A program made the translations under genes and the position numbers. From the NCBI GenBank assembly GCA_002364005.1, contig DEXG01000023.1, positions 94,702-158,701 of the forward strand: 64,000 nt of DNA, in the 5' to 3' direction. Of this stretch, positions 14,634 to 30,228 are shown in pieces. Under the pieces are notes generated by a model, which did not search any database, was not told the origin of the DNA, and saw nothing but the letters and a program-made list of their open reading frames with translations. Every line of letters starts with the position of its first letter. The first letter of the stretch is position 1. The DNA is from Phycisphaerales bacterium UBA3190 (GTDB taxonomy: Bacteria > Planctomycetota > Phycisphaerae > Phycisphaerales > UBA1924).

Positions 14634-14660
14634 AGTCCTTACATCGGTCTGTCGATCACG

Positions 14661-17427: not shown

Positions 17428-17493
17428 GGTGATTATTCTCCCGCAATGCATACATACTAGAAATTGGTGACGATGCTGGTGGTAAAATATTTC

Positions 17494-18123
17494 TCATTGT
17501 GCACTTGTGTAAAGCGAAACCCTTGCTTTCTTGAGCATGCCAATGAAGGCCAAGCCGGGCTCCTTGAACTCGCTCAGCCGCAGGGTCTGCCAGTGGCGAT
17601 CGAGGTATTCATCAAGGTAGGATATAACCTGCGAGAGAAGGATCACATGGCAATGTCGCCCAACACTCTGGTCGTGCGTTGATCCGAAAGCGACCAGACG
17701 GACCCGGTGCCCCGATTGAGTCTGTGCGGCTCCTCGACTCACAAGTTCGGTGGCTAATGTCTCCGCGTGGTCGTAACTGCAGCATCCGAACCTCGTTAAG
17801 GCTGCACGCAGTACAGCGGGTTCCGTGGCTCCTCTATTGAGAGTTGCCTTTCCCTCTTTGACCTCACCGACGAGCATGTCGGCTCCGCCATCGGTGAGCG
17901 CGAGTGCTGGGTCAACCTCACCGACTGCAACGTCCTGGGTAGAGGATCTACCGCGCCTTGGGATCAACCGAGCGGCATCGGGAAATCGAAATGCCAAAAC
18001 GTCGATGTCAGTCGCGGTTCGGTGGATGCCCGAGCGACCTGATTCGACGATTGGGAATTCGGTGACAGTGAAGTAGCCATTGACCCTAAGGTAAGCCTGC
18101 ACCAGTGCGACTGCGTTGTCCAT
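17494..18123 (-). CDS. Hypothetical protein with a PD-(D/E)xK nuclease-like motif
   Basis: DIDVLAF ... LVGEVKEGK spacing is typical of the restriction-endonuclease fold. No other recognisable domain. Confidence 0.5.
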   Translation of the reverse strand: MDNAVALVQAYLRVNGYFTVTEFPIVESGRSGIHRTATDIDVLAFRFPDAARLIPRRGRSSTQDVAVGEVDPALALTDGGADMLVGEVKEGKATLNRGATEPAVLRAALTRFGCCSYDHAETLATELVSRGAAQTQSGHRVRLVAFGSTHDQSVGRHCHVILLSQVISYLDEYLDRHWQTLRLSEFKEPGLAFIGMLKKARVSLYTSAQ

Positions 18124-18144
18124 TGTGATACTCCTTCGAGTAAT

Positions 18145-18594
18145 CTAAGGTGTCGGGGTAGATACATGTATTGCCTCGGCCTCGGAAACGAAGTATTCCG
18201 TGATTGCGATACCAAATGGTGAGGAGGCATCGGACTCAACAACTCGTTGATTCCACGCCTTCATCCACTCAACGTGCCGGAGAATCGCGTCCTCTTGGTT
18301 CCCGAGACTGGGATCGAGTTCATACAACTCTATCTTGGCTTGCATTCGTCTCTTGGACCACCGGTAGATGGCCTCGGGATCCATACCACCTCGCGGAGCA
18401 CCGCTTTCTGCATCGTGGAACATGTGACAGATGCGCTCAGCGACTTGGAGCTTGGCTCGGGCGGCATCGAGCTGATCCATGGCCGCTACGCGGCCTTCAG
18501 GTTGGCGTTCGCCGGCGTCAAGACTGCCGGCCGCGATTGTGAACAATGCGATCATCAGAATGGCTGCGGTTATGGTGGGCGTGAAATGTTTCAT
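18145..18594 (-). CDS. Secreted hypothetical protein
   Basis: N-terminal signal peptide (ILMIALFTIAAGSLDA). Sits between the nuclease-like gene and the ATPase. Confidence 0.5.
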   Translation of the reverse strand: MKHFTPTITAAILMIALFTIAAGSLDAGERQPEGRVAAMDQLDAARAKLQVAERICHMFHDAESGAPRGGMDPEAIYRWSKRRMQAKIELYELDPSLGNQEDAILRHVEWMKAWNQRVVESDASSPFGIAITEYFVSEAEAIHVSTPTP

Positions 18595-18633
18595 GGCTCA
18601 TGTCCTATTGAGGGGATATATGTAAATCGCTTC

Positions 18634-20703
18634 CTACTCGTCGCGTTCTGTCACCACATGATGGGTGTCCGTTGGAAGCCGCTCGATGCGTAGGAACTTG
18701 GCGTTGATTGCCACGATCACGGTGGAAAGAGACATGAATACAGCGCCCAGTGCCGGAGACAGTACGATCCCGAGCGGGTACAGCACCCCAGCAGCTGCGG
18801 GGATGGCGAACGCGTTATAGCCCGTTGCCCACCAAAGGTTCTGGACCATCTTGCGATAGGTTGCACGCGAAAGCTCAATAATGGCGGTCACATCTCGGGG
18901 GTCAGAGCGGACAAGCACGATGTCCGCAGACTCGATCGCGACATCAGTACCAGCCCCGACGGCGATGCCAACATCGGCTTGGGTGAGTGCCGGCGCGTCG
19001 TTCACACCATCACCGGTCATCGCGACCACGAGGCCACGCGACTGCACTTCCTTGATCTTGGATGCCTTCTGGTCTGGAAGAACTTCGGCGAAGTAGTCAT
19101 CGAGTCCGAGTTCCTCAGAGACCCATTTCGCTACGGCCTCGGCGTCACCGGTAAGCATCATTACCTGTATGCCCATGGCTTTGAGCCGTTCGAGCGCCTC
19201 GCGTGACTCCGGTCTGATGATGTCTGCAAGCGCGATGGCTCCCTCGACAGCCCCGTCGATAATCAAGTAAACAACGGTCTTACCCTGATCGGCGACGGTG
19301 CGTACTCGCTCGTCGGTGACGACCATGTCATGCTCACGGAGGTAGCCCGGGCTGACGATCCGGAGACGAATGCCGTCGACGACCGCCTCGGCTCCGCGGC
19401 CTGGGATGGCTCTGAACTCTGATGGTGCGGGGAACTCGACTTTCCGTTCCCGGGCACCACGCACGACACCTTCAGCGATGGGGTGCTCTGACTGACTCTC
19501 AAGACTCGCCGCGAGGCGAAGAAGTTCCTCTTCGGACCGCTCGCCAAGAGGGATGATGTCGGTGACGCCGAATCTGCCTTCTGTGAGCGTGCCGGTCTTG
19601 TCGAAGACGATGGCGTCAAGGTCTTTGCCTCTCTCGAAAGCAGTGCGATCGCGGATGAGAAGGCCGTTTCCGGCCGAGATCGACGTCGAGACAGCAACGA
19701 CGAGCGGGACCGCCAAGCCCAACGCATGAGGGCACGCGATGATCATGACGGTTACCGCACGCTCAAGTGAGAAGTCGAACGGCTTACCGATGAGAAGCCA
19801 CGTCACGAGCGTGGCAGAGCCTACTGTGATCGCAATCACAGTGAGCCAGAGTGCCGCGCGGTTGGCCAAGTCCTGCGTCTTGGACTTCGACTCTTGCGCC
19901 GCGCGGACCATCTCGATGACCTGAGCGAGATAGGTCTCGCCCCCAGTGCGTCGGACCTCCATAGTGAAGGCCGATTCACCGTTAATCGCACCCCCGATGA
20001 CTTCGTCTCCCTCTCCCTTCTCGGCAGGCTTGCTCTCGCCGGTGAGCATCGCCTCGTTGATGGTCGATCGCCCATCGACAATCATTCCGTCGGTCGGGAT
20101 CTTCTCGCCGGGCTTGACCAAGACTCGGTCGCCGTGGTGAATTTCGGAAACCGGGACGTCGCGAGTGCTTCCGTCATCGCCGACGAGATGCGCCTCAGAA
20201 GGCATGAGTTTGACGAGTTTCTCGAGCGCAGCGGACGCCCCCATCACGGACTTCATCTCGATCCAGTGGCCCAGAAGCATGATGTCGATGAGCGTTGCGA
20301 GTTCCCAGAAGAACACTTCGCCGACCAGCCCAAAGACAACCGCGGTGGAATAGAAGTACGCCACAGAGATCGCCAACGCGATGAGCGTCATCATGCCCGG
20401 GCGTCGCTTACCCAGTTCGTTGCCCAGACCGGAAAGGAATGGCCAGCCGCCGAAAAAATATACGATCGAAGCGAACACAAACTGCACATAGGAATCGCCT
20501 GTGAAAGAAAGCGCCTCCTCTAATCCAAGCAGTGACTGGATCATGGGCGCAAGAGCGACGACAGGGGCAGTCAGCACCAGCGAGACCCAGAAGCGCTTTC
20601 GGAAGTCCGCCACCATGTGCGCATGATGATTATGATGACCGCCCTCGGATTGATTGTTGTGGCCGTGTTGATTCACAGCGTGGCCGTGATGTTTATGGGT
20701 CAT
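18634..20703 (-). CDS. Copper-translocating P1B-type ATPase with a His-rich N-terminus (CopB-type)
   Basis: DKTGTLT, TGES, MLTGD and GDGVNDAP motifs, plus membrane CPH (IIACPHALG). Start ATG 20703 follows GGAGA. N-terminus is [29 protein letters not shown]. Confidence 0.95.
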
Positions 20704-20990
20704 GACGATCTCCTTCCAACGGCGAGGTTGTAGAGTGAAGCAATGAGTGCACCAAAGAGCCAACCGAGAAGGATGACCTCCACGGTGCCGACGATGGCTT
20801 CCCACCACGGCATGTCCCAACGAACAAATGACTCGACATCGAGGCCGTGCATAACGCTGTTGAAGAACCGGACCACGAGCTCCTTCGGCGCAACGAGCAT
20901 GAGCGTGGCACACGCGATGTACAGCAAGCCGCAGGCGACCCCGAAGGCGAATCCGGATCCTTTGATACTAATCGTGTTCACAGGGCACAT
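20700..20990 (-). CDS. Small membrane protein (DUF5676-like guess)
   Basis: 96 aa with 2-3 TM. Its stop overlaps the ATPase start (ATGA). Confidence 0.55.
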   Translation of the reverse strand: MCPVNTISIKGSGFAFGVACGLLYIACATLMLVAPKELVVRFFNSVMHGLDVESFVRWDMPWWEAIVGTVEVILLGWLFGALIASLYNLAVGRRSS

Positions 20991-21171
20991 CTCCTTTATC
21001 TGTCGGGGTCGATCCGTGGTTATGCCCGCGGAGCATCAGCAAATGACACCCGAACATCAGCACGATGAAGACGAACAACGCGACGTTGTTGTCGACTCCG
21101 AACAGCGGGAGCAGGAACACTGCGAGTAGTGGCAGGGCACAGCCCGCCACATGCATGAGTGAATGTCGCAT
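20968..21171 (-). CDS. Small His-containing membrane protein (DUF2933-like guess)
   Basis: 67 aa with two TM helices and CHLLMLRGHNHG. Its start overlaps the phosphatase stop by 1 nt (TGATG). Confidence 0.5.
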   Translation of the reverse strand: MRHSLMHVAGCALPLLAVFLLPLFGVDNNVALFVFIVLMFGCHLLMLRGHNHGSTPTDKGDVPCEHD

Positions 21172-22604
21172 CAGCAGACCCCCTGTGGTTGTTTGGCTAC
21201 TGCAACGGCGACAGTGACTACCGTCATGTCGTCCGCGGCGGCTCTGCCATCGAGGTGTTGACGCGCAGAATTAAGTACGCTCTCGGCCACGGATTTTGGA
21301 GTGCGATTACGCAGTCGGGTGAGATTCCGCACGATCGACTGTCGGCCCAGCAGCTTTCCGTCGCGGTCCACAGATTCGCTCAAACCATCGGACATGAGTA
21401 CGAGGACATCGCCAGCGTCAAGATCGAGTTCGACATCTTCGAATTCTGCGGAGGGGTCGATGCCGAGGATCATGCCCGTCGAAGTGAGCTCGGTGAGCTG
21501 CCCTTGGGCAATGAGCACATAGCAGGTTTCGTGACCCGCGCTCGCATACGTGATGGGACCTCCGAGTGCGGGCACACGCACGACAATCATGGTCACAAAA
21601 TCCTCCGGCAAACTCGCACGGCAGACCCCCGAGTTGAGGTTTTTGAGCACCGCTGCTGGGCTGAGCTCCGACGCATCGAGGGAAACAACGAGCGCTTTGA
21701 TGACGGCGGCACCCATGGCAGCTGGGACCCCGTGCCCGACGACGTCGGCAAGGCATATCAACCTGTCTCCGCCCACCAGTTCGATCACTTCCACGTAGTC
21801 ACCGGCAACCTGGTCAGCCGGGTGGTACTCGATGGCGATGTCGGGGTCTGATGACGCACCGGCCATCAATCGAGACTGGAGTCGCCTGGCGCGTGCCAGT
21901 TGCGCCGCGCGGTCTTCCTCTCGCCTTACGAGATCGAGCATCATGGTGCCCAGTTCCCCCGTCAGCGTTGCCAACTCGGCGTTGGTGGGCTCAGGGAGAT
22001 CGACGGTGGTGTGCGTCTCCCCAAAGGTGCGGACGCGATGCGACAGAGCTTCGAGCGGTGCTGAGATGAGTCGCAGTAGGAGTGCGTTCACGATGGCTGC
22101 TGCAACTACGGAGGTGACAAAGAGCACTAGAGCACGCCTCAAAGCAGTAGCTCTGGCTGATGCAACCACTGGGCTCGCCGACTCTGAAACCCTGACCAAT
22201 GTCGGTTCGCTGGCGGATTCGCCCCGGATACGAGACAGACTCTCGGAATGAACATGCGCGGTGTGTGAGGCGAAATACTGGCCCGTGGCCTGCCACGCCT
22301 GCACTGTGTGCCCAGGCGATGTCTTCGTGTCCATCGCAGTGCAAACACCGTCGAGATAGGCCTGGACGGCCTCGCTCCCGTGATGGCTGAGCGCGTTGAT
22401 GGCCTCGCTAATCGCACTGGCCTCGTCGGCGAGCGATGCCTGCTTGCTCAGAATCGCCGCATCCATGCTGGCTCGGTAGTCAAGATAAAGCATGCCGAGC
22501 GTGGCTACGCCAACGACGGTGTTCACGACGAGCAGTAGCTGCGTGCGAACTCGGAGGCTGGCAAACCACTTCCGGGAGCGTGTAGTGAATGACCAGGGCT
22601 TCAT
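21171..22604 (-). CDS. Membrane-anchored PP2C-type phosphatase (SpoIIE/RsbU family) with sensor/HAMP-like N-terminus
   Basis: Motifs GDYVEVIEL, DVVGHGVPAAM and SDGLSE, with two TM segments bracketing a periplasmic region. Confidence 0.85.
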   Translation of the reverse strand: MKPWSFTTRSRKWFASLRVRTQLLLVVNTVVGVATLGMLYLDYRASMDAAILSKQASLADEASAISEAINALSHHGSEAVQAYLDGVCTAMDTKTSPGHTVQAWQATGQYFASHTAHVHSESLSRIRGESASEPTLVRVSESASPVVASARATALRRALVLFVTSVVAAAIVNALLLRLISAPLEALSHRVRTFGETHTTVDLPEPTNAELATLTGELGTMMLDLVRREEDRAAQLARARRLQSRLMAGASSDPDIAIEYHPADQVAGDYVEVIELVGGDRLICLADVVGHGVPAAMGAAVIKALVVSLDASELSPAAVLKNLNSGVCRASLPEDFVTMIVVRVPALGGPITYASAGHETCYVLIAQGQLTELTSTGMILGIDPSAEFEDVELDLDAGDVLVLMSDGLSESVDRDGKLLGRQSIVRNLTRLRNRTPKSVAESVLNSARQHLDGRAAADDMTVVTVAVAVAKQPQGVC

Positions 22605-22942
22605 GAGCAGCTCTCCGGCTTCTTGTGGCCGTCGCGCCGAAGCTCGTAGGCGATGCTCAGACTAAGCACGGTGCGAATCACGATGACCGCACCGAGTACG
22701 GCCATACCCTCGAGTGTGGGCGTGACAACCGTCTTGAGGATGTCCGCCGCGATCAGGAACTCAAGTGAGAGCACAAGGCGTTCGGCGAGACGGAGGCGCG
22801 ACTCGGTCGTGCGCTCGCGGAGACCCCGGCGTATCGCTGCGACCACGATGTCTATGACGGCAGCCACGATGGATGCAGCGATCATGATCGCGGCGATCGC
22901 TTCGATGAACTGAACAGTGATGTTGATGAGTTGTTCTATCAT
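22601..22942 (-). CDS. DUF1622-like small membrane protein
   Basis: 113 aa with LEFLIAADILKT. ATGA overlap with the phosphatase gene. Confidence 0.65.
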   Translation of the reverse strand: MIEQLINITVQFIEAIAAIMIAASIVAAVIDIVVAAIRRGLRERTTESRLRLAERLVLSLEFLIAADILKTVVTPTLEGMAVLGAVIVIRTVLSLSIAYELRRDGHKKPESCS

Positions 22943-22963
22943 GCGATGTCGTAGCTCTATCTA

Positions 22964-23737
22964 TCAGTGGTGCTTGTACCAGCCGATTCGTGGGATCTCG
23001 TTCCATGAGTTGGTCCGGTGACATTTGAAGCAATCCGTCACCTCGGCATGCTCAATACCAGCGACACGTTTCGATACCATTTTGAAATGGCCCATGTAGT
23101 GACTCGGCGGCGCGCTGTGGCACTGCGCACAGTTCATGGACATCGGCGACGGGTGCCGGTACTCCGGGATGTTCCAGGTCAATGTGGAGTGGCAGGATGC
23201 GCAGCTGGTTCCGAAGAGTGTGCGGTGCGGGTCCTCGTTGGCGTGACAGGACGCGCAATCAAGAGCAAGTTCGCTCGACGAGATCCGCGGGTGTGGTGTC
23301 GGCATCGCGCGAGCATGAGCCCGTATTGACTCGATGATGACCTGCGCGTCGTTGCTTGCACCGGATTGTGCGATCTCAACAAATAAGTCATGGTCCATGG
23401 CCGTCGGGGTCGCTGGTGGCGACTGGTGTTCGGCGTGACAGCCGACGCAAGAGCCCACGCTTGCATGGAACGCAGTCTCAGGTTGAGAAAGAAGCTCTTC
23501 GTCATTGGCGTGGCACGCAATGCAGTTCGAAGCAGTGACGCCGATGTGGGGCGTGTGGCAAGAGGTGCAATCGTTGCCGAGAAAGGCGTGGGCCTCGGTG
23601 AGCGGTCCGGGACTGACGAACTCTTGCCAACCGGGAGCCGCGTCTGCACCCCCTCGATGGACGAACAGTGGGAGTGAGAACGCGAAGCCAAGTCCTCCGA
23701 GTGTGACGACGCCATAGATAACTTCGAGTTTTTTCAT
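22964..23737 (-). CDS. Periplasmic heptaheme c-type cytochrome
   Basis: Seven CxxCH motifs (CTSCH, CIACH, CVGCH, CASCH, CASCH, CAQCH, CFKCH). Signal anchor MKKLEVIYGVVTLGG. Its start overlaps the upstream stop (ATGA at 23734-23737). Confidence 0.85.
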   Translation of the reverse strand: MKKLEVIYGVVTLGGLGFAFSLPLFVHRGGADAAPGWQEFVSPGPLTEAHAFLGNDCTSCHTPHIGVTASNCIACHANDEELLSQPETAFHASVGSCVGCHAEHQSPPATPTAMDHDLFVEIAQSGASNDAQVIIESIRAHARAMPTPHPRISSSELALDCASCHANEDPHRTLFGTSCASCHSTLTWNIPEYRHPSPMSMNCAQCHSAPPSHYMGHFKMVSKRVAGIEHAEVTDCFKCHRTNSWNEIPRIGWYKHH

Positions 23738-24486
23738 GGGAGCCACCGGATGCCGAAGTACCACGCCGACCAGACATGTATGAAGAGCAGCGCGTAGAGC
23801 ACGACGGCAACGAGGATGTGACACACGAGCCAGCGGGCGAATGCGTTCTTGGCTGTGGAGTGCGTGCGGATGGCGAGGTCGAGGTCTGAGATGGATTCGC
23901 TGATACGAATCGCCCTTGACGGGAGCTGCATTAACCCCTGTTCGTCACGCGCGACGAAAAACGATGCCGCCCGGCCGAGCAGCGAACTATTCCGGCGGAG
24001 CGTCAAAGCGGCATCCGAGTGGTCGCCCATCTCTTGAGCCAGGGCACGATGCGCCGTCAGCAAACGCTCACGGTCTGCTTTCATCTTCCGGATGTCGGTC
24101 GAAAGCTGTCCGAGGAGGTATCGCCCAAGGTATCCGCTCACCGCTACGACGAGCATCATGAGAGTAAGGGCAATACCGATAGGGCTCTGAAACTTGTGCC
24201 CCGTGTGCAGCACACCGAGGATTGGAGCGAGTACGCCGGCGTAAATGTGAACCGTGAGGAAGGTTCGCATCGAGACGTACGGCGTGACTCTCCGTTTGAG
24301 CCACGGAATCCGCTTCACGAACAGGTAGAGCAGCGGCACAAGCATGAGCGATGCGGCGGCAACACCGAGCAGGCCACCGGTGAGGCTGCCCGCGAATCGT
24401 GGGTCACGGTGCACGAAGAAGCCCAAGGTGAGCATCAGCAAAAGCGTGATAAGCCCCGAAACGATGATCTTCTGTCGCTCATGCAT
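23734..24486 (-). CDS. Five-TM bis-histidine membrane protein (ferric-reductase/NOX-type di-heme b domain-like)
   Basis: Two TM helices each carry a His pair spaced i/i+14 (HIYAGVLAPILGVLH and HILVAVVLYALLFIH). ATG 24486 lies 1 nt after the upstream TGA. Confidence 0.65.
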   Translation of the reverse strand: MHERQKIIVSGLITLLLMLTLGFFVHRDPRFAGSLTGGLLGVAAASLMLVPLLYLFVKRIPWLKRRVTPYVSMRTFLTVHIYAGVLAPILGVLHTGHKFQSPIGIALTLMMLVVAVSGYLGRYLLGQLSTDIRKMKADRERLLTAHRALAQEMGDHSDAALTLRRNSSLLGRAASFFVARDEQGLMQLPSRAIRISESISDLDLAIRTHSTAKNAFARWLVCHILVAVVLYALLFIHVWSAWYFGIRWLP

Positions 24487-24487
24487 C

Positions 24488-26065
24488 TCAGGCCTCCACC
24501 TCAAGCTTGTCGCTCTTGCTCTTGGCCTGACAGGCGAGGATGACGCCGGCTTGTCGGTCCGCGTCATCAAGCGCGTCCTCCACGTCCATCGTGACCTCGC
24601 CCTTGAGAAGCTTTACTCTGCAGCTCCCGCAGGTCCCCGCACGACAGAAGTTATCGATGTCGACCCCGGCGTCATCCGCCGCCTCAAGCACTGTGGATGT
24701 CGGCGGAAGAGGGACTGTTTTTCCGGACACGGTGAAACGCACGGTCGAATACGACGCCTGAGTTGCGGTATCCGCTGCCGGAACAGCTCTCTTGGCGGGT
24801 CCGAAGGCTTCGGTCTTGACGCGTTCGGAGGGGACACCGAGTTTGCAGAGCGTGCCCTTGATCGCTTCCATCATCGGCGGTGGGCCGCACAGATGAACGA
24901 GCTTGGAGGCGATGTCTGGCACACATTCTCGGATGAGCCCTGCCGAAAGCCGCCCGGTCGGGCCAACCCAGGTGCTGCCTCGTGCACGCGTCATTGTGGC
25001 CGTGATGTTGAGGCGCGAGTGCTTCAGCTGCAAATACTCCAGTTCATAGCGGAAGCAAAAATCGTCGGTGGTTCGGCAGCAGTGCAGGAGATAGATGTGG
25101 CCCGCCCACGCGCGATCCGTGAGGTATCGGATCACACTCATCATGGGAGTGATGCCGACTCCGCCGCTGACGAGGACGATGCTTTCTTCCCCCTCGCCGG
25201 TGAATGTGAACGTTCCCGACGGAGCACTCAGTGTGAGCTCGTCGCCATCGGCGAGCGTGTCGTGGAGCGCACGGCTCACGACGCCGTGCTCCTCGCGCTT
25301 GACGGAAATCTCGACGTACTCCTGGCGCGTGGGGCTCGACGCGATCGTGTAAGACCGCTTCACGCGTCGTCCCTCGGTTTCGATCTCCACGGTCATGAAC
25401 TGACCGGGGAGGTACGAGAACGGGACAGCGCCTCCAGTGGGGTTGACGAAGCGGAAGGTATCAATGTCAGGCGTCTCTCTGAACGTCGCTGCGAGACGGA
25501 GCCGCCCTTCCCAGCGTTCATTGCGGACCGATGGCTGCAACGCCGCTGTTGCGGGCGCGGGAGGAGGGGCGAGGATCGCGGCGGATGAAGCCGACGGAGC
25601 TGACTGGGCTGATGGAGCACCCTCAGGTCGTGCCGAGAGTTCTTGCAGCAGGTTCGTGGCTCGCCGCATCTTCATGAAGTACAGCGCGATCATGACAAGG
25701 GCGAAGCCGATCAGCACGGCCATGCCGCTCGCGTGGAACCAGGACCACCCAAACGGACCAGTCGTGGTCGAGGCCGACGCCGGCGTAGAGAGATTCAACT
25801 CGCGCTTGAACCACTCCATGGCGGCCTGGTCCGAGGGCACCCCACTGTTCATGACACGGTGCGCAGCCAGTCCGCTATCGAATCGTGACAGGCCCTCTCG
25901 GAGCATGTTCACGGCGTCCTGCATTGCCTCGAAGTCCTGCGTGGGTGACGACCGTAGCAGTGCGTCAAAGCCCTCGCTCATTAGTTCTGTACCGGCGCGC
26001 ATCCGCTCGTGGCCGAGTCGCTCAAACGCGTCGCGCTGCTCAGCCGTCATGTTCGGGAGGTCCAT
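24488..26065 (-). CDS. Membrane-anchored FNR-like oxidoreductase (FAD/NAD(P)-binding) with a C-terminal plant-type 2Fe-2S ferredoxin domain and an N-terminal LTXXQ-like domain
   Basis: RSYTIASSP (FAD-binding motif), GGVGITPM (NAD-binding motif) and CRAGTCGSCRVKL (2Fe-2S motif). One TM helix (MAVLIGFALVMIALYF). Confidence 0.85.
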   Translation of the reverse strand: MDLPNMTAEQRDAFERLGHERMRAGTELMSEGFDALLRSSPTQDFEAMQDAVNMLREGLSRFDSGLAAHRVMNSGVPSDQAAMEWFKRELNLSTPASASTTTGPFGWSWFHASGMAVLIGFALVMIALYFMKMRRATNLLQELSARPEGAPSAQSAPSASSAAILAPPPAPATAALQPSVRNERWEGRLRLAATFRETPDIDTFRFVNPTGGAVPFSYLPGQFMTVEIETEGRRVKRSYTIASSPTRQEYVEISVKREEHGVVSRALHDTLADGDELTLSAPSGTFTFTGEGEESIVLVSGGVGITPMMSVIRYLTDRAWAGHIYLLHCCRTTDDFCFRYELEYLQLKHSRLNITATMTRARGSTWVGPTGRLSAGLIRECVPDIASKLVHLCGPPPMMEAIKGTLCKLGVPSERVKTEAFGPAKRAVPAADTATQASYSTVRFTVSGKTVPLPPTSTVLEAADDAGVDIDNFCRAGTCGSCRVKLLKGEVTMDVEDALDDADRQAGVILACQAKSKSDKLEVEA

Positions 26066-26292
26066 GAGGCTCGGATAGATATCCTTGGGCGGCGGAACAC
26101 CATCCGGCTCATCATCTCACCCATGTCGCCCATGCCCTGCATGCCGCCAGCACCGCTCGCCTCAGTCGTGTCGCCCGCCGCTGACTCGGGATGATGCTGA
26201 GCGTGCTCTTCTGGTGATACTTGCGCATATGTGTTAGTACCAATGACGGCAATGAGAAAGCACATCAGGACTAGCGTGGTTGATCGGCTCAT
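26047..26292 (-). CDS. Signal peptide + Met-rich segment; possibly the displaced 5' end of the reductase gene
   Basis: MSRSTTLVLMCFLIAVIGTNTYAQ signal, then GMQGMGDMGEMM. The frame overlaps the reductase frame over 26050-26116. Confidence 0.45.
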   Translation of the reverse strand: MSRSTTLVLMCFLIAVIGTNTYAQVSPEEHAQHHPESAAGDTTEASGAGGMQGMGDMGEMMSRMVFRRPRISIRASWTSRT

Positions 26293-27275
26293 GATGTACC
26301 CTCAGCGGGCTGAGTCCCAAAAAACGACTCGTCGGCGGAAGTGGTATTAGCGAGCACTCTCTGAAGTGCTGCAAACGCCGTCTCATCGAGCTTCGCTCCT
26401 CGCAGAGACTCCATGGCTTGAATCGCCTCTGACTCTGTCATCGCTTCGTGGTACGGTCTCGCCTCGGTGAGTGCTGCGAACACATCCGCAACCCGAAGCA
26501 CCGCGGCGGTGGGGTCGATGTCTGAGGCGGTAAGGCCTCTGGGGTACCCCGAGCCATCCGGAGACTCGTGATGCTGGGATACCAAACGGGCGATCGCTTC
26601 CGTGCCCGGAATCTCACCGAGCATCCCAACGGCGATGTCGACATGCTCGCGCATAGCGGCCATCTGCTCATAATCGAGCGAGCCGTGTTTGAATAGAACC
26701 GCGTCAGGGACTCCTGCCTTGCCTATGTCGTGCACCAAAGCCGCGAGATGTAACTGAGACACCTCGTGGGCTTCAACCCCGAGTTCCTCGGCAATCGCTG
26801 TAGAGAGCTCCGCCACTCGGCGCGAGTGTTGAATAGTGGCTTCGTCTCGCACGCCAACGGCGGTGAGCAATCCCGTGATGCCGTTGATCATCTCGGTATG
26901 CTGAGAGCGAGCGATGACTTCGTCGCGCTGTCGCTTGCGCATGTTCGACGACTGCACGAGATGCCCGGTGATCGCACCAACAACCGGGTACACACCAATC
27001 CACGCGTATTGATCAAGATTTGCCATAGGCGAATCACCCCATGACCAGAGCAGGTGGCTGAAGTAAACGGCACTCGCAACAGCGGATGCGAGCAACCCTC
27101 CTTTTAGCTCGAATGCCACGGCGCAGATCAGGATGGGTATGAGGAAGAGACCTGCAAGCAGGATGTGAAGCCAGTGGAGCGCCGGCGAATGCGTATTGAT
27201 CGCAAAGTGGGCAACGGTAATCCCGACAGTCCAAAAGGCTGCGCGTTGAATCTGCGATTTCTGGTATGTCAGCAT
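26289..27275 (-). CDS. Membrane HD-GYP domain protein (c-di-GMP phosphodiesterase-type)
   Basis: HDIGK and HHESPDGSGYP motifs with a 4-5 TM N-terminus. Start chosen at ATG 27275 (MLTYQK), because the upstream extension is Arg/Pro-rich. Confidence 0.85.
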   Translation of the reverse strand: MLTYQKSQIQRAAFWTVGITVAHFAINTHSPALHWLHILLAGLFLIPILICAVAFELKGGLLASAVASAVYFSHLLWSWGDSPMANLDQYAWIGVYPVVGAITGHLVQSSNMRKRQRDEVIARSQHTEMINGITGLLTAVGVRDEATIQHSRRVAELSTAIAEELGVEAHEVSQLHLAALVHDIGKAGVPDAVLFKHGSLDYEQMAAMREHVDIAVGMLGEIPGTEAIARLVSQHHESPDGSGYPRGLTASDIDPTAAVLRVADVFAALTEARPYHEAMTESEAIQAMESLRGAKLDETAFAALQRVLANTTSADESFFGTQPAEGTS

Positions 27276-27421
27276 GCTGCCCCTTCGTTCGCGCGTTTCT
27301 GGCCGTCGCTTTGCTGGTAGATGGTGCCCAGCCGAACCGAGCTCGCCTCGACGCACAACGAGGGCATGAGATGCCCCGCTGTGCGTCGGTGCGCTTGGCA
27401 TGGCCGGATAGGTGCAGCCCA

Positions 27422-27736
27422 TTAGCTCTCCGCGTTGACTTCGAGCACGCGGTTCATCGTGCCGAACTCGTTGGGAGCGCAGCCCTCACAGCCGTTGTAC
27501 GGGCGATCGCAACCGGCCTCACAGCACCACGCGCCGTCAACAACGAACTTGTACTCGTAGCGGCTCGGTGGGAGGTCAAGCTCGATCTCCCACCAACCCT
27601 GCCTGTCGCGCGTCATTGCGTGTGTGGTCGTGCTCCATTCGTTGAACGAGCCGGCGACAAATACTTCGCTCGCGTCAGGGGCAGCGAGTGTGATGCGTGA
27701 GACGGTGGTCTGGGTTGCTTGCTTGGGCATTGTCAT
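27422..27736 (-). CDS. CBM48 / AMPK-beta glycogen-binding-like (early-set) domain protein
   Basis: VFVAGSFNEWS ... WWEIELDLPPSRYEYKFVVDG pattern. Confidence 0.7.
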   Translation of the reverse strand: MTMPKQATQTTVSRITLAAPDASEVFVAGSFNEWSTTTHAMTRDRQGWWEIELDLPPSRYEYKFVVDGAWCCEAGCDRPYNGCEGCAPNEFGTMNRVLEVNAES

Positions 27737-27755
27737 GCTCCTTTCAGTAATGGTG

Positions 27756-28583
27756 TCAGTCGTCCTTGCTCTGGCCAGTCATGTCCATGGGGCGGGTTCC
27801 TGCGAGGGTTTGCCGTTGCTCAACAGTCAGAATCTGGGCAGCCTCGCCCACCGCTCTGATAAACGCGAGACGCTTCTCGGCACGCAGCGCTTCGATGGCG
27901 CGGACCTCGGTCTCGATGCGATTGATGTCGGGGGTAGACGCGGCCGTCAGCGACCACAGCACTTCTTCGAGGCCCTCGATGCGGCGGTCGTAATCCGACT
28001 GGGCGAGGATGATTTCCTGCTTCGTTTCGTTCAGACGAGTTTGTTGTTCGAGCGTCAGGTCGATGTGCTCGTTGTGGTCGAGGAAGAAGCCGGTAGCGCC
28101 GATGTGGTAGACGTGCGATGCGCCAGGAAAGCCCGGAAGGTCAGAGCGAACTTCCATCGCATCGGTGGTGCCATCGACATCTTTTGCCTTCGGACCCATG
28201 CCCATCATGCCACCCATGCCTCCCATGGAGTTGGCATGGGAGGGCCCCATTTCTCCCATGGCGTTCATGCCCATCTGACGCTTACCACCCATGTCGCCCA
28301 TGCCACCCATCGCGTTCTGCTTCTTGGAGGTGCGCGCGGGCGCGCCGTCCGAAGTCGATGAAACCGGTCGGTGATCGAGCTGTAGCGAGGCTTCAAGCTG
28401 GGCGACCTGAGCGCGGAGTGCTGCGAGCTCTTTCACGATGTCAGCGTTTCCGCTGATTTCATGCGTTTCGTGTTTGGTGTGGTCCCCATCTCCGTGGTTC
28501 TGTGCGATTGCCGGAGTTGCGAACATGGTGGCCGCGAACAGCAGCGGAATGAGGAAGGATATTTGTGCCTGAGAGTTTTTCAT
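27756..28583 (-). CDS. Periplasmic Met-rich LTXXQ (CpxP/Spy/ZraP-like) heavy-metal stress protein
   Basis: Signal peptide, MGGMGDMGGKRQMGMNAMGEMG...MGGMGGMMGMG tract, and two LTXXQ motifs (LTLEQ, LTVEQ). Confidence 0.8.
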   Translation of the reverse strand: MKNSQAQISFLIPLLFAATMFATPAIAQNHGDGDHTKHETHEISGNADIVKELAALRAQVAQLEASLQLDHRPVSSTSDGAPARTSKKQNAMGGMGDMGGKRQMGMNAMGEMGPSHANSMGGMGGMMGMGPKAKDVDGTTDAMEVRSDLPGFPGASHVYHIGATGFFLDHNEHIDLTLEQQTRLNETKQEIILAQSDYDRRIEGLEEVLWSLTAASTPDINRIETEVRAIEALRAEKRLAFIRAVGEAAQILTVEQRQTLAGTRPMDMTGQSKDD

Positions 28584-28800
28584 GATTCAGCTCCTTGTCA
28601 GGGGTAAACACGCCAACCGTCCTACTGGCCTCTGAATGCCACGGCGGCCAATTGACACACTAAAGATGCATATACTATCTTCTTTGAATGTATTGGGCAA
28701 CCGTGCTTTATCACTTGCCTGCGTGCTCACGCCTCCGATTGCCCATATCCTTCGAAGACGTTGATGAACAAAGTGGCCGCAATGGTCTCGAAAGGTCTGG

Positions 28801-29256
28801 ATGATTTCACGGCAGGTAGCAATGGCGGCGGTTTGCATGGGGCTCATCGGTCGCGATGGGTCTGACGAGTGCATGCAGATTCCCGAGCTTGTTGAGCTGA
28901 CCGGGATTTCGCGGCCAACTCTTGGCAAGGTCGTCAATGCACTAGCCCGGAAGAAACTCGTGAAGACCCAGCGTGGTGTCGGCGGCGGGGTGCGATTAGT
29001 CCGTTCTGTCGAGCAGGTCTCCCTGTACGACCTGTGCGTGGCCTTTGACGACCCGGTGATCGAGTGCCAATGTTCTTTCGGTTTCGGCCACTGCGCCGAA
29101 GAGGGCCCGTGCCCCCCCGGATGCCTATGCGTCGCGCAGCAGTCGAAGCAGTTGGAGTACCTCAAGAACACGAGCGTGTTTGATATCGCTGAAATGATGT
29201 TGCCGAGGCTCAAGAAGGCTGCTCGGTCAGCGAAGCGAGCGAAGCAGAATCGCTGA
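28801..29256 (+). CDS. Rrf2-family transcriptional regulator with a Cys-rich C-terminal region
   Basis: wHTH (IPELVELTGISRPTLGKVVNALARKKLV, GVGGGVRL) and a Cys cluster CQCSFGFGHCAEEGPCPPGCLC. Divergent from the LTXXQ gene. Confidence 0.85.
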   Translation: MISRQVAMAAVCMGLIGRDGSDECMQIPELVELTGISRPTLGKVVNALARKKLVKTQRGVGGGVRLVRSVEQVSLYDLCVAFDDPVIECQCSFGFGHCAEEGPCPPGCLCVAQQSKQLEYLKNTSVFDIAEMMLPRLKKAARSAKRAKQNR

Positions 29257-29317
29257 GCCTGATCCCTGCCCAAGTCGCCTGGGGATGCCCGCATTCCGGT
29301 TTCAGCTGGTTCTCGCA

Positions 29318-30211
29318 TCATGGTAGCAGATACTCCCATCCATAGACAAGCGAACCGCCGAAATGACCCGCGACTCCAACCAAAGCGGCAGACACCAGCA
29401 ACGCAGCCGTAGCGAATCGGCTCATCCTCTTGCATCTCGCGCGTTGTTCAACGGCGAACCACGCGATGCCTGCAGCAACCGCGACCGAGATCCCCAGTGC
29501 GCGGTGCCACCAGAACACCCACGACAACGTGCCCGAGTAATCGCTCGCAGACCCATGAAGCAAACCAAGCAGCACTGCCGCGACGGCCGAAAGCGCTCCT
29601 ACTGCTGTGAGCAGTCGAATGACCCCCTCGTTCCTCAATTGCTCGCGGGCGAGTCCTACAACCTCGACAAGCGCCCCGAGGAGCAGGAACGCGATCGGGA
29701 AGTGGATGACTACGACGTGGAGTCGACCGAGCATCGCTGTGAGTGACACGCCATGGTCTGTAGCGTGGTCGTGGTTCTCTTCGGGCGACTCACCGTCGTG
29801 ATCGTGGCCACCATCAGTCGCGCCGAGCCGGTCCGCGTCTGGCTGCCCGGCGACAGCAGCATCCTCAGGATGATCGTGATCATGCCCCTCCGCTTCGGGC
29901 TTGCTCTTGTCCTCCGGCATTGCCACAGGCATGACCCTCGCCAACGACTCAGTAAGAGCCTCCGGATTCTGTTTGAATCGGAGCACGCAACGCCGACAGC
30001 AGAAATACACACGCGTGCCATCATGGTCAGTGAAAAAGCTTGGATCGACCGCCTCATCCGGCGTCACCGGACACAGGGTATTGGCCAACCCCGTCTCTCC
30101 CCCCGTTCCGTCCGGGGAGGAGATCTGGGCCGCCAATACTGAGGCATCCACAATGAACACCAGCAACAGGAGCAGCGGTACCAAGAAACGTCGACGGTTT
30201 ATGGTGTCCAT
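29318..30211 (-). CDS. YHS/TRASH-domain + multi-TM (DUF2231-like) protein
   Basis: Signal peptide, CPVTPDEAVD...YFCCRRCVLRF (YHS-type), a His/Asp-rich linker and four C-terminal TM helices. Confidence 0.75.
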   Translation of the reverse strand: MDTINRRRFLVPLLLLLVFIVDASVLAAQISSPDGTGGETGLANTLCPVTPDEAVDPSFFTDHDGTRVYFCCRRCVLRFKQNPEALTESLARVMPVAMPEDKSKPEAEGHDHDHPEDAAVAGQPDADRLGATDGGHDHDGESPEENHDHATDHGVSLTAMLGRLHVVVIHFPIAFLLLGALVEVVGLAREQLRNEGVIRLLTAVGALSAVAAVLLGLLHGSASDYSGTLSWVFWWHRALGISVAVAAGIAWFAVEQRARCKRMSRFATAALLVSAALVGVAGHFGGSLVYGWEYLLP

Positions 30212-30228
30212 GCGTATTTTTCCTCGTG

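What the first reader, a model, noticed from the sequence alone, without database searches (positions are those of the whole stretch)
21171..26292. Split NOX/ferric-reductase-like electron-transfer chain feeding a heptaheme cytochrome, coupled to a PP2C phosphatase
Six minus-strand genes are joined by overlaps or gaps of 21 nt or less.

- A signal-peptide/Met-rich ORF.
- A membrane-anchored FNR-type flavoprotein with a C-terminal 2Fe-2S ferredoxin domain.
- A 5-TM protein with two His pairs spaced i/i+14 on separate helices. This is the spacing used to ligate two stacked b hemes in NOX/FRE-type ferric-reductase domains.
- A periplasmic cytochrome with seven CxxCH sites.
- A DUF1622-like membrane protein.
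- A membrane PP2C (SpoIIE-type) phosphatase.

Together the parts give a complete path: cytoplasmic NAD(P)H to FAD to 2Fe-2S to two b hemes across the membrane to a multiheme c wire in the periplasm. I do not know of this gene combination as a described system. In a copper island it could reduce periplasmic Cu(II), Fe(III) or another oxidant, or act as a redox sensor driving the phosphatase.
Basis: inference. Interest (0 to 1): 0.65.

Follow-up and report, generated by a model that had tools for sequence, protein, structure and literature searches.

The report
Copper-island NAD(P)H-to-periplasm electron chain
Three genes that travel together in copper-resistance islands of hundreds of bacterial species look like a wire carrying electrons from cytoplasmic NAD(P)H across the membrane to a seven-heme periplasmic cytochrome, and nobody appears to have described or tested this wire.

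Summary
The domain calls at 21171-26292 are correct, but the gene count and the core of the system need correcting.

**One gene, not two.** The "Met-rich ORF" and the flavoprotein are a single gene. A 1-nt deletion at window 26100/26101 (GGG to GG) splits it. Relatives encode it intact, at 560-680 aa. It has a signal peptide, a His/Met-rich periplasmic domain, one TM helix, then FAD, NAD and 2Fe-2S domains.

**Conserved core.** The core is a triad:
- the membrane-anchored FNR-ferredoxin;
- a 250-aa, 5-TM protein with four invariant His (H-x13-H on TM3 and on TM5);
- a membrane-tethered cytochrome with seven CxxCH sites.

Across 80 species genomes the reductase gene is adjacent in 73 of 75 assessable loci. 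The cytochrome gene is adjacent in 76 of 76. In all, 503 species genomes and 54 plasmids carry the 5-TM gene.

**Context.** Neighbours are mostly copper genes: multicopper oxidase, CopB, Cu-ATPase, CsoR and a Met-rich CpxP-like protein.

**Accessory genes.** DUF1622 recurs in 25 of 80 loci. The PP2C directly follows the module only in close relatives (7 of 80).

**Family placement.** The 5-TM protein has the NOX/FRE-like His pattern. Pfam, Foldseek and hhalign all failed to place it in that family.

**Best reading.** An uncharacterised NAD(P)H-driven electron-export module for periplasmic copper redox handling, probably Cu(II) reduction. I found no published description.

The parts
24488..26292 (-). 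One ancestral gene for a membrane-anchored FNR-ferredoxin. It encodes a signal peptide, an EEHAxHHP plus Met-rich stretch, a helical periplasmic domain, one TM helix, then FAD, NAD and 2Fe-2S domains. In the window it is read as two ORFs (26047-26292 and 24488-26065) because of a frameshift.
   Evidence: Relatives encode one ORF of 601 aa (L004-L007), 577 aa (L001) or 617 aa (L003). Pfam finds FAD_binding_6, NAD_binding_1 and Fer2. Motifs RSYT, GGVGITP, CGP and C-x4-C-x2-C...C are present. The N-terminal domain is conserved across 45 sequences.
26100..26101 (-). Frameshift site. The window has GG where all relatives have GGG, a 1-nt deletion.
   Evidence: DNA alignments to L004, L006 and L007. 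This is the only gap in 19 kb against L004. A 1106-nt Tara contig, L092, is 100% identical and carries the deletion.
25658..25747 (-). The single TM helix of the reductase. It separates the periplasmic N-terminal domain from the cytoplasmic FNR/2Fe-2S part.
   Evidence: Hydropathy. The AlphaFold model of the N-terminal 140 aa has helices at 8-39, 45-74, 78-89 and 109-139, with pLDDT 86.
23734..24486 (-). A 250-aa, 5-TM protein and candidate di-heme b transmembrane relay. The start is M29 of the mechanical ORF. Between TM4 and TM5 it carries an ~85-aa helical insert on the cytoplasmic side.
   Evidence: Homologues start at this Met. There are 467 close hits and 2101 cluster representatives. The AlphaFold model has pLDDT 80.7. 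The SGxxG motif on TM4 and W219 are conserved.
24205..24249 (-). TM3 His pair, H80-x13-H94 in the 250-aa numbering.
   Evidence: Invariant in 40 close and 28 distant family members.
23776..23820 (-). TM5 His pair, H223-x13-H237, preceded by W219.
   Evidence: Invariant in 40 close and 28 distant family members.
22964..23737 (-). A 257-aa heptaheme c-type cytochrome with an N-terminal membrane anchor or signal sequence. The start is M30 of the mechanical ORF.
   Evidence: Seven CxxCH sites, found in 82 of 86 homologues. Seven invariant extra His, a conserved SHYMxHF motif and a C-terminal KHH. Pfam Cytochrom_c3_2.
22601..22942 (-). DUF1622 small membrane protein, a recurrent accessory gene.
   Evidence: Pfam 1.1e-20. 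Present in 25 of 80 loci. Also found next to the cytochrome on a Methylophaga plasmid and nearby on a Variovorax plasmid.
21171..22604 (-). Membrane PP2C (SpoIIE-type) phosphatase with two TM helices and a HAMP-like linker, a lineage-specific accessory gene.
   Evidence: Pfam SpoIIE 6.2e-41 and sub-threshold HAMP. Its start overlaps the DUF1622 stop in an ATGA. It directly follows the module in only 7 of 80 loci.
26289..27422 (-). Membrane HD-GYP-type (HD_5) protein. It lies immediately upstream, with an ATGA overlap onto the reductase gene start.
   Evidence: Pfam HD_5 7.9e-36. Junction. Present in 34 of 80 loci.
27422..27736 (-). A 104-aa CBM48/AMPK-CBM-like protein with a Cys-rich tail, in the upstream part of the same array.
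   Evidence: Pfam. Present in 31 of 80 loci.
27756..28583 (-). Secreted His/Met-rich protein with a CpxP/LTXXQ 'Metal_resist' domain, the usual first gene of the array.
   Evidence: Pfam Metal_resist. Upstream in 59 of 80 loci. RefSeq names homologues 'periplasmic heavy metal sensor' or 'Spy/CpxP family'.

Best explanation
[quoted passage not shown] It is carried in mobile copper-homeostasis islands.

**Proposed path**
1. NAD(P)H reduces FAD in a membrane-anchored FNR-type reductase.
2. The electron passes to that protein's C-terminal plant-type 2Fe-2S cluster.
3. It then passes to the cytoplasmic-side heme b of a 5-TM protein (ligands H80 and H223), and across the membrane to the periplasmic-side heme b (ligands H94 and H237).
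4. It enters a membrane-tethered cytochrome carrying seven hemes, all plausibly bis-His.

**Likely acceptor.** The reductase carries a periplasmic domain with a His cluster (EEHAxHHP) and a Met-rich stretch. The array usually begins with a Met-rich CpxP-like periplasmic protein. I therefore propose that the terminal acceptor is copper, with Cu(II) reduced to Cu(I) and bound to Met sites, or another copper-stress-related periplasmic oxidant.

**What is shown and what is inferred.** Shown: domain content, motif conservation, gene order, copper context and mobility. Inferred: heme b binding, direction of electron flow, complex formation and the acceptor.

**In this window.** The reductase gene carries a 1-nt deletion, so this copy may be impaired. 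DUF1622, PP2C and HD-GYP are lineage-specific additions, not core parts.
For: **Domains and motifs**
- The domains and cofactor motifs are intact.
- Four His are invariant in 40 close members and in 28 distant members down to 27% identity, with x13 spacing on TM3 and TM5.
- Sub-threshold Pfam hits go to two di-heme families: Ferric_reduct in 17 of 40 members and DUF4405 in 19 of 40.
- The pattern of 5 TM helices, SGxxG on TM4 and WxxxHx13H was reported for inner-membrane partners of multiheme cytochromes (PMC5566968).

**Topology (inference)**
- The reductase has a Sec-type signal peptide, then one TM helix, then the FNR part.
- K/R-rich loops of the 5-TM protein lie on the side of H80 and H223.
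- The cytochrome has an N-terminal anchor.

**Cytochrome**
- Seven CxxCH sites and seven further invariant His fit an all bis-His wire.

**Gene linkage**
- The reductase gene is adjacent in 73 of 75 assessable loci and the cytochrome gene in 76 of 76.
- These loci span Planctomycetota, Nitrospirales, Verrucomicrobiota, Hydrogenedentota, Legionella and Methyloversatilis.
- The triad is also on plasmids of Bacteroidota and of Alpha-, Beta- and Gammaproteobacteria.
- One metagenomic representative, P0329, has NAD_binding, Fer2 and the 5-TM protein in one polypeptide.
- Stop/start overlaps suggest translational coupling.

**Copper context**
- A multicopper oxidase, CopB or Cu-ATPase lies within 8 kb in 50 of 80 loci, and the Met-rich CpxP-like gene in 59 of 80.
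- CsoR, HMA, TRASH/YHS, DUF305, DUF411 and DUF2933 genes also recur.

**Other support**
- A Glu/Leu/Phe/Val dehydrogenase gene overlaps the reductase gene start in 17 loci, a possible local NAD(P)H source.
- The ccm cytochrome c maturation genes lie about 3 kb downstream of the triad on the Methylophaga plasmid.
Against: - No cofactor, activity, transcript or phenotype has been measured for any member.
- The 5-TM protein has no significant match to any solved structure, by sequence or by fold. hhalign against E. coli MsrQ also finds nothing. The di-heme assignment therefore rests on the conserved His pattern.
- Reducing Cu(II) to the more toxic Cu(I) beside a multicopper oxidase that re-oxidises it looks futile unless Cu(I) is channelled onward.
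- About a third of the loci show no recognised copper gene within 8 kb. Some neighbours are a NiFe hydrogenase or an ATP synthase operon.
- The 80 loci surveyed are those closest to the window, so the copper frequency may be biased.
- The window's own reductase gene is frameshifted.
Confidence: 0.6

Rival explanations
1. The 5-TM protein is a quinone-reactive cytochrome b, as proposed for the PCC3/PCC4 inner-membrane proteins and as known for CymA/NapC/CbcL-type entry points. On this view it links the quinone pool, not NAD(P)H, to the heptaheme cytochrome. The flavoprotein would then serve another partner, or act as a second input.
For: He et al. proposed quinone coupling for 5-TM proteins with the same motif pattern (PMC5566968). 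Recent work finds a ubiquinone cofactor in MsrQ (title of PMC12525009). Two loci, L059 and L075, lack an adjacent reductase gene.
Against: The reductase gene is adjacent in 73 of 75 loci, often with overlapping stop and start codons. One representative is fused to the reductase C-terminus. The reductase is itself membrane-anchored, which fits a fixed membrane partner. No quinone-site motif was identified.
Confidence: 0.12
2. The chain supplies reducing power to repair or protect the periplasm during copper-driven oxidative stress. It would act like Fre-MsrQ-MsrP, for example by reducing peroxide, superoxide or O2, or by re-reducing oxidised Met-rich copper proteins. Copper itself would not be the acceptor.
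For: A split NOX-like chain that feeds a periplasmic repair enzyme and is induced under copper stress is documented in E. coli (PMC9302797, PMC5676040). Met-rich proteins flank the module.
Against: No MsrP-like molybdoenzyme, peroxidase or thiol-redox gene was found among the genes conserved around the triad. Seven invariant distal His suggest that all hemes are six-coordinate, which is poor for catalysis on small oxidants.
Confidence: 0.12
3. It is an assimilatory ferric (iron) reductase, as the automatic name 'iron reductase' implies.
For: UniRef and some RefSeq records name the 5-TM protein 'iron reductase'. c3-type cytochromes are promiscuous metal reductases (general knowledge, not tested here).
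Against: No iron-uptake genes were found among the conserved neighbours, and the context is copper resistance across phyla. The name is automatic and no experimental basis for it was found.
Confidence: 0.06
4. It is a redox or copper sensor whose output is the PP2C phosphatase or the HD-GYP enzyme, as the reader suggested as an alternative.
For: In the window's clade, HD-GYP and PP2C flank the module with overlapping stop and start codons. The reductase has a periplasmic His/Met domain that could sense copper.
Against: The PP2C directly follows the module in only 7 of 80 loci and HD-GYP is present in 34 of 80. Many lineages (Legionella, Alteromonas, Variovorax, Spirosoma) have neither. A nine-heme, flavin and Fe-S chain is far more than known sensors use.
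Confidence: 0.05

Closest known systems
NOX/FRE NADPH oxidases and ferric/cupric reductases, including bacterial SpNOX (PMC5676040, PMC11031084, PMC11564096)
   Same: Cytoplasmic NAD(P)H and FAD feed two stacked b hemes. These are held by His pairs on TM3 and TM5, and electrons leave on the outer face. Eukaryotic members reduce Cu(II) as well as Fe(III) (PMC7558416).
   Different: Here the flavoprotein is a separate polypeptide with its own TM anchor and periplasmic domain, and a 2Fe-2S cluster sits between FAD and heme. The membrane part has 5 TM helices rather than 6, with an ~85-aa cytoplasmic insert. A heptaheme cytochrome c follows it. No significant sequence or fold match to the family was obtained.
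Fre-MsrQ-MsrP, the two-component NOX-like system of E. coli
   Same: The design is split: a cytoplasmic flavin reductase, a membrane b-type cytochrome and a periplasmic redox partner. It is linked to copper stress (PMC9302797).
   Different: MsrQ has six TM helices and belongs to PF01794. Fre is soluble, unanchored and encoded elsewhere. The acceptor is a molybdoenzyme, not a multiheme cytochrome. hhalign of this family against MsrQ gives 0.2% probability.
MsrQ-like extracytosolic electron-transfer clusters with a fused NAD-binding domain (bioRxiv 10.1101/2021.01.07.425746)
   Same: These are predicted routes from NAD(P)H to a di-heme protein to an extracytosolic redox carrier. They were found by genomics and are uncharacterised.
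   Different: There the outer carrier is an ApbE-flavinylated FMN protein and the membrane protein is a true PF01794 member. The clusters are mostly in Actinobacteria and are linked to iron. Copper is not mentioned in that paper.
Inner-membrane proteins of the PCC3/PCC4 porin-cytochrome clusters (He et al. 2017, PMC5566968)
   Same: Five TM helices, SGxxG on TM4, WxxxHx13H motifs on TM3 and TM5, and a gene next to periplasmic multiheme cytochromes.
   Different: Those clusters carry a porin and giant extracellular cytochromes, and were proposed to exchange electrons with quinones for iron oxidation. Here there is no porin, there is a dedicated NAD(P)H reductase, and the context is copper. Direct sequence homology was not tested.
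NqrF of the Na+-NQR complex
   Same: It is a membrane-anchored subunit carrying FAD, an NADH site and a 2Fe-2S cluster. It injects electrons into a transmembrane relay that reaches periplasmic-side cofactors (PMC10643135; the comparison otherwise rests on general knowledge).
   Different: The domain order differs: TM, Fer2, FAD, NAD in NqrF against periplasmic domain, TM, FAD, NAD, Fer2 here. The relay also differs, being an Fe centre and flavins in NQR against hemes here. NQR ends at quinone.
CcoG, the only specific bacterial cupric reductase described so far (PMC7558416)
   Same: It is a membrane-bound Fe-S protein dedicated to Cu(II) reduction within copper trafficking.
   Different: CcoG uses two 4Fe-4S clusters, its electron donor is unknown, and it serves cbb3 oxidase assembly. 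It has no hemes, no flavin and no periplasmic wire.

Membership tests
Ferric-reductase domain (FRD; NOX/FRE/STEAP/MsrQ, Pfam PF01794) | Two His pairs about 13 residues apart on TM3 and TM5 | tested here: met
   H80-x13-H94 on TM3 and H223-x13-H237 on TM5. Both pairs are invariant in 40 close and 28 distant members.
Ferric-reductase domain (FRD; NOX/FRE/STEAP/MsrQ, Pfam PF01794) | Significant match to the family profile | tested here: not met
   The window protein scores 18 bits against a gathering score of 28. Only 17 of 40 members give sub-threshold hits, the best at E = 0.0014, and DUF4405 scores equally well.
Ferric-reductase domain (FRD; NOX/FRE/STEAP/MsrQ, Pfam PF01794) | Six-TM core fold resembling solved NOX, STEAP or MsrQ-type structures | tested here: not met
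   Five TM helices are predicted. Foldseek against the PDB gives no hit at E <= 0.001, and NOX5 ranks 46th at E = 1.7. hhalign against E. coli MsrQ gives 0.2% probability, although a single-sequence template is a weak test.
Ferric-reductase domain (FRD; NOX/FRE/STEAP/MsrQ, Pfam PF01794) | Binds two b hemes | not testable with these tools
   This needs a pyridine hemochrome assay or spectroscopy on purified protein.
PCC3/PCC4-type 5-TM inner-membrane proteins (PMC5566968) | Five TM helices, SGxxG on TM4 and WxxxHx13H on TM3 and TM5 | tested here: met
   Five TM helices. S117-G118-x-x-G121 is conserved, and W219-x3-H223-x13-H237 lies on TM5. TM3 has Hx13H, but the Trp is not at position -4.
PCC3/PCC4-type 5-TM inner-membrane proteins (PMC5566968) | Cluster also encodes a porin and very large multiheme cytochromes | tested here: not met
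   The only cytochrome is the ~260-aa heptaheme protein. No such genes appear among the conserved neighbours.
PCC3/PCC4-type 5-TM inner-membrane proteins (PMC5566968) | Sequence homology to the published PCC3/PCC4 proteins | not tested
FNR-family reductases with a plant-type 2Fe-2S domain (phthalate dioxygenase reductase-like) | FAD_binding_6, NAD_binding_1 and Fer2 domains with the RxYS/T, GGxGxTP and C-x4-C-x2-C...C motifs | tested here: met
   All three domains score above the Pfam cut-offs. The motifs lie at residues 237, 301, 474-482 and 512 of the 525-aa ORF. No NCBIfam equivalog cut-off is reached, so this is not a named enzyme such as GbcB or PaaE.
Class III (c3-type) multiheme cytochromes c | Multiple CxxCH sites with His as the second axial ligand, and a match to the family profile | tested here: met
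   Seven CxxCH sites. Cytochrom_c3_2 scores 35.8 bits against a cut-off of 25. Seven invariant non-motif His are present. Which His ligates which heme was not determined.
PP2C/SpoIIE phosphatases | SpoIIE domain above threshold | tested here: met
   140.9 bits against a cut-off of 25. No partner STAS or anti-sigma gene was found among the window ORFs I scanned.
MsrPQ-type periplasmic repair system | A periplasmic molybdopterin Met-sulfoxide reductase (MsrP) encoded with the membrane cytochrome | tested here: not met
   No such domain occurs in the window ORFs I scanned or among the conserved neighbour clusters.

The most novel reading that the evidence does not exclude
The triad is a dedicated, NAD(P)H-powered periplasmic cupric reductase. 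Cu(II) is captured by the His cluster of the reductase's periplasmic domain, or by conserved His/Met sites on the cytochrome. The heptaheme wire reduces it. Cu(I) is then handed to Met-rich carriers for Cu(I)-specific efflux or sequestration. This would be the first extracytoplasmic copper reductase known in bacteria. It spreads between phyla on plasmids and conjugative elements, including elements of Legionella pneumophila.
Probability: 0.3. Interest if true: 0.8.

Novelty: new variant of a known kind. Interest (0 to 1): 0.66.

Why it matters
- **An open question in copper biology.** It is not known how the redox state of periplasmic copper is set. Efflux pumps and Met-rich chaperones handle Cu(I), whereas oxic environments supply Cu(II). 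A 2020 review lists CcoG as the only specific bacterial cupric reductase and calls the apparent lack of others puzzling (PMC7558416).
- **A concrete candidate.** This module is cofactor-rich and strongly conserved. It sits in copper islands of at least 503 species genomes and 54 plasmids. All three proteins carry only generic or automatic names: hypothetical protein or 'iron reductase' for the 5-TM protein, 'cytochrome c3 family protein', and 'FAD-binding oxidoreductase'.
- **A new family to define.** The 5-TM four-His proteins form a family with no curated Pfam or NCBIfam model above threshold, comprising 2101 clusters at 50% identity.
- **A new design.** It shows another way of wiring cytoplasmic NAD(P)H to periplasmic multiheme cytochromes without the quinone pool.
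- **It can be tested.** Cultured, genetically tractable carriers exist: Legionella, Alteromonas macleodii, Variovorax and Bradyrhizobium BTAi1.

Tried and rejected
- **PDB sequence searches.** The 5-TM protein gave nothing as a single sequence or as a 40-sequence profile. The cytochrome gave only weak c3-like hits, the best at E = 0.044.
- **Foldseek on the 5-TM model** (pLDDT 80.7). There was no hit at E <= 0.001, and the top hits were generic helical bundles and ABC transporters.
- **Foldseek on the reductase's periplasmic domain model** (pLDDT 86.3). The domain is a helical hairpin plus a short helix, and no informative match was found.
- **hhalign of the family profile against E. coli MsrQ.** No similarity.
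- **BLASTP of the reductase N-terminal domain against the upstream Met-rich CpxP-like protein.** No similarity beyond composition, so the two are not paralogues.
- **Word-indexed homologue search with the 140-aa N-terminal fragment.** It returned only one hit and was uninformative. I repeated the search with the full-length protein.
- **Promoter and terminator scan of 14000-32000.** The counts match shuffled sequence, so the scan says nothing about operon boundaries.
- **Literature.** Seven of the eight searches run, by function terms, product names and accession or locus tags, found no paper describing the triad. One further search failed on syntax.
- **Bradyrhizobium BTAi1 plasmid.** I considered that its hits might be PCC3-type clusters. 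They are further copies of the same triad, one of them disrupted by an IS3 element.
- **Frameshift as a shared allele.** One other contig, L092, carries the deletion. It is 100% identical over 1106 nt and may come from the same sample, so it is not independent evidence.

Full report
**1. What is in the sequence**

- Pfam confirms the domain calls:
  - The 525-aa protein has FAD_binding_6, NAD_binding_1 and Fer2.
  - The cytochrome matches Cytochrom_c3_2 above threshold.
  - The 113-aa protein is DUF1622 (1.1e-20).
  - The 477-aa protein is a SpoIIE-type PP2C (6.2e-41) with two TM helices and a sub-threshold HAMP hit.
- The cytochrome has exactly seven CxxCH sites.
- The membrane protein has five hydrophobic helices and two His pairs at i/i+14.
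- The flavoprotein has the RSYT, GGVGITP and CGP motifs, and a C-x4-C-x2-C...C cluster of the plant-ferredoxin type.
- Homologues show the real starts: M29 of the membrane protein ORF (gene 23734-24486, 250 aa) and M30 of the cytochrome ORF (gene 22964-23737, 257 aa).
- With those starts, the junctions are a 1-nt gap, an ATGA overlap, a 21-nt gap and an ATGA overlap.

**2. First correction: five genes, not six**

- In every relative, the 'signal-peptide/Met-rich ORF' and the flavoprotein are one ORF of 560-680 aa.
- The window lacks one G in a GGG run at 26100-26101.
- A marine metagenome contig, L004, is 98.9% identical over 19 kb and differs by a single gap, which is this one.
- One 1106-nt Tara contig is 100% identical to the window and carries the deletion. 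It may come from the same material, so I cannot say whether the frameshift is real or an assembly error.
- The intact protein runs as follows:
  - a Sec-type signal peptide;
  - a near-invariant SPEEHAxHHP motif;
  - a Gly/Met-rich stretch (MQGMGDMxEMM);
  - a conserved helical domain;
  - one TM helix;
  - the FNR and 2Fe-2S part.
- The helical domain is modelled as a hairpin plus a short helix, with pLDDT 86.
- A periplasmic His/Met domain on an FNR-type reductase is unusual. It has no Pfam model and no informative structural neighbour.
- If the deletion is real, the window's copy loses its signal peptide and may be impaired.

**3. Second correction: the core is a triad, and the array is longer**

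- Scanning one genome per species found 503 genomes that encode a relative of the 5-TM protein.
- In the best 80 loci, the reductase gene is immediately upstream in 73 of 75 assessable cases. The heptaheme cytochrome gene is immediately downstream in 76 of 76.
- The lineages include:
  - Phycisphaerae and Planctomycetia (Stieleria, Tautonia);
  - Nitrospirales;
  - Verrucomicrobiota;
  - Hydrogenedentota;
  - Methyloversatilis;
  - Legionella.
- The triad is also on 54 plasmids, 27 of them typed as conjugative. The hosts include Legionella pneumophila, Alteromonas macleodii, Sphingobium, Spirosoma, Variovorax, Methylophaga and Bradyrhizobium BTAi1, the last with several copies.
- Seven CxxCH sites occur in 82 of 86 cytochrome homologues.
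- Accessory genes are less constant:

| Gene | Loci out of 80 |
|---|---|
| DUF1622 | 25 |
| HD-GYP | 34 |
| PP2C within 8 kb | 13 |
| PP2C directly after the module | 7 (close Phycisphaerales relatives only) |

- In the window, the tightly packed array extends upstream through HD-GYP, a small CBM48-like Cys-rich protein and a secreted Met-rich CpxP/LTXXQ protein. The last of these is found in 59 of 80 loci. Downstream the array runs into DUF5676 and the Cu-ATPase.

**4. The 5-TM protein**

- The family is well defined and has no significant Pfam or NCBIfam match. It has 467 close hits, and a profile search finds 2101 representatives at 50% identity.
- H80, H94, H223 and H237 are invariant in 40 close members. 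They are also invariant in 28 members down to 27% identity, as are G118 and G121 of an SGxxG motif on TM4; W219 is nearly invariant.
- Charge distribution and the model place H80 and H223 near the cytoplasmic face and H94 and H237 near the periplasmic face. This is the arrangement in which each of two hemes is held between TM3 and TM5 (inference).
- An ~85-aa helical insert between TM4 and TM5 lies on the cytoplasmic side. It is a plausible docking site for the 2Fe-2S domain (inference).
- Two further His at the periplasmic face, H26 and H97, are invariant among close relatives only.
- Family membership is a separate question, and here it fails:
  - PF01794 is below threshold, with equally weak DUF4405 hits.
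  - There is no PDB relative by sequence or by profile.
  - Foldseek finds no match.
  - hhalign against MsrQ finds nothing.
- The closest published description is the 5-TM inner-membrane protein class of the PCC3/PCC4 clusters. That class has the same SGxxG and WxxxHx13H pattern next to multiheme cytochromes (PMC5566968).
- Two fusions are informative:
  - About ten loci fuse a DUF547 domain to the C-terminus.
  - One metagenomic protein joins the NAD_binding and Fer2 domains to the 5-TM protein.

**5. The cytochrome**

- Besides the seven CxxCH sites, it has seven invariant His (H50, H91, H104, H116, H171, H195 and H213). That is enough to make every heme bis-His, as in low-potential c3-type wires.
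- It also has conserved M114, an SHYMxHF motif and a C-terminal KHH.
- It has an N-terminal hydrophobic anchor and no significant solved relative.

**6. Context**

- The window's left and centre form a copper island. It contains a multicopper oxidase, CopB, a Cu-ATPase, an HMA-MauE fusion, TRASH/YHS proteins, DUF2231, an Rrf2 regulator and an RND efflux set.
- The right half carries ParA, ArdC and a TrwC relaxase, so the island rides on a conjugative element.
- Across the 80 loci, a multicopper oxidase, CopB or Cu-ATPase lies within 8 kb in 50.
- CsoR-type repressors, HMA and TRASH proteins and outer-membrane efflux proteins recur among the neighbours.
- Annotated plasmids from four other phyla or classes show the triad among copper resistance genes: DUF305, DUF411, DUF2933, a four-helix-bundle copper-binding protein, and CopA/CopB.
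- Exceptions exist. The triad sits next to a NiFe hydrogenase cluster in Alteromonas and next to an ATP synthase operon in Legionella.
- In 17 loci, a Glu/Leu/Phe/Val dehydrogenase gene overlaps the start of the reductase gene. This would fit a local NAD(P)H supply.

**7. Mechanism**

- Best-supported model: NAD(P)H to FAD to 2Fe-2S on the cytoplasmic side, then two b hemes across the membrane, then seven c hemes in the periplasm.
- The composition, the conservation and the obligatory gene linkage are shown. Cofactor binding, complex formation and direction of flow are inferred.
- Uphill flow from a periplasmic donor to NAD(P)+ is thermodynamically implausible. That statement rests on general redox chemistry.
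- The acceptor is unknown. Copper is the leading candidate for three reasons:
  - the genomic context;
  - the His-plus-Met periplasmic domain on the reductase;
  - the Met-rich partner protein.
- The objection is that Cu(I) is the more toxic form and the neighbouring multicopper oxidase re-oxidises it.
- Rival explanations are quinone coupling, a reductant supply for periplasmic repair, iron reduction and signalling. They are listed with their tests in the Rival explanations section.

**8. Comparison with what is known, and novelty**

- The logic of NAD(P)H to flavin to di-heme membrane protein to an outside acceptor is that of NOX/FRE enzymes. It is also that of the split Fre-MsrQ-MsrP system and of the predicted MsrQ-like clusters (PMC5676040, PMC9302797, bioRxiv 10.1101/2021.01.07.425746).
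- A membrane-anchored FAD/2Fe-2S subunit feeding a transmembrane relay recalls NqrF.
- The new features are:
  - the 5-TM family itself;
  - the 2Fe-2S step between FAD and heme;
  - the periplasmic His/Met domain on the reductase;
  - the heptaheme output;
  - the copper-island and mobile-element context.
- Source databases call the proteins 'hypothetical', 'iron reductase', 'cytochrome c3 family protein' or 'FAD-binding oxidoreductase'.
- Seven of the eight literature searches run found no description of the triad.
- I rate it a new variant of a known kind.

**9. Verdict**

All domain calls are right, but the gene count and the boundaries are wrong.
The electron path is well supported, the PP2C coupling is not general, and NOX/FRE membership is unproven.
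- Interest is moderately high. The module is widespread, uncharacterised and testable, and it bears on how bacteria set the redox state of periplasmic copper.

Noticed in passing
window 46356-53957 (+): A ParA-like ATPase (46356-47450), an ArdC-like anti-restriction protein (48526-49563) and a TrwC relaxase (51120-53957). The copper island therefore sits on an integrative-conjugative or plasmid-like element.
   Followed up: partly
window 35847-45091 (+): Four consecutive genes: a DUF499 ATPase, DUF3780, a DUF1156 methyltransferase-like protein and a PLD plus SNF2 helicase. This looks like a restriction-modification or defence-island module. I did not scan it against PADLOC.
   Followed up: no
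window 27422-27736 (-): A 104-aa CBM48/AMPK-CBM-like protein with no signal peptide and a Cys-rich tail (WCCEAGCDRPYNGCEGCAP). It is conserved upstream of the reductase gene in 31 of 80 loci and may be a cytoplasmic metal-binding protein.
   Followed up: partly
L076 4054-5829, plus 16 other loci; L088 12927-14198: A Glu/Leu/Phe/Val (glutamate-type) dehydrogenase gene lies directly upstream of the reductase gene and overlaps its start in 17 of 80 loci. The Legionella plasmid has one nearby. It may be a dedicated NAD(P)H source.
   Followed up: partly
L046 8001-9638, and about nine other loci (L047, L049, L050, L052, L058, L060, L063, L070, L073, L079): In some Planctomycetota and Hydrogenedentota the 5-TM protein carries a C-terminal DUF547 domain of about 280 aa with a conserved AVSCAAVSCPDR motif. 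On the proposed topology this domain is periplasmic.
   Followed up: partly
protein P0329 (465 aa, metagenomic representative): It has NAD_binding_1, then Fer2, then the N-terminal part of the 5-TM protein in one polypeptide. This is either a natural fusion or a read-through of the 1-nt gap between the genes.
   Followed up: no
window 32320-34608 (+): A 762-aa protein with DUF6851 and a vanadium-chloroperoxidase-like second helical-bundle domain, lying beside the copper island.
   Followed up: no
window 12042-12872 (-): A fusion of a heavy-metal-associated (HMA) domain with a MauE-type membrane domain.
   Followed up: no
L088 94-6273 (Legionella plasmid) and L003 1-2176: A second F-type ATP synthase operon lies just upstream of the triad on a conjugative L. 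pneumophila plasmid, with the gene order beta, epsilon, AtpZ/I, A, C, delta, alpha, gamma. ATP synthase genes also lie upstream in one metagenomic locus.
   Followed up: no
L089 11801-18720 (Alteromonas macleodii pAM1A3): The triad lies directly upstream of NiFe hydrogenase structural and maturation genes on this plasmid. This context is not obviously related to copper.
   Followed up: no
L090 (Bradyrhizobium sp. BTAi1 pBBta01): The plasmid has several copies of the triad. One has its reductase gene truncated beside an IS3 transposase. Another is preceded by a Spy/CpxP-family gene, and there RefSeq names the 5-TM protein 'iron reductase'.
   Followed up: partly
window 28801-29256 (+): An Rrf2-family regulator is transcribed divergently from the Met-rich first gene of the array and is a candidate regulator. 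The only good sigma-70-like match in the region (28652-28681) lies upstream of it, but the promoter scan as a whole was at chance level.
   Followed up: no
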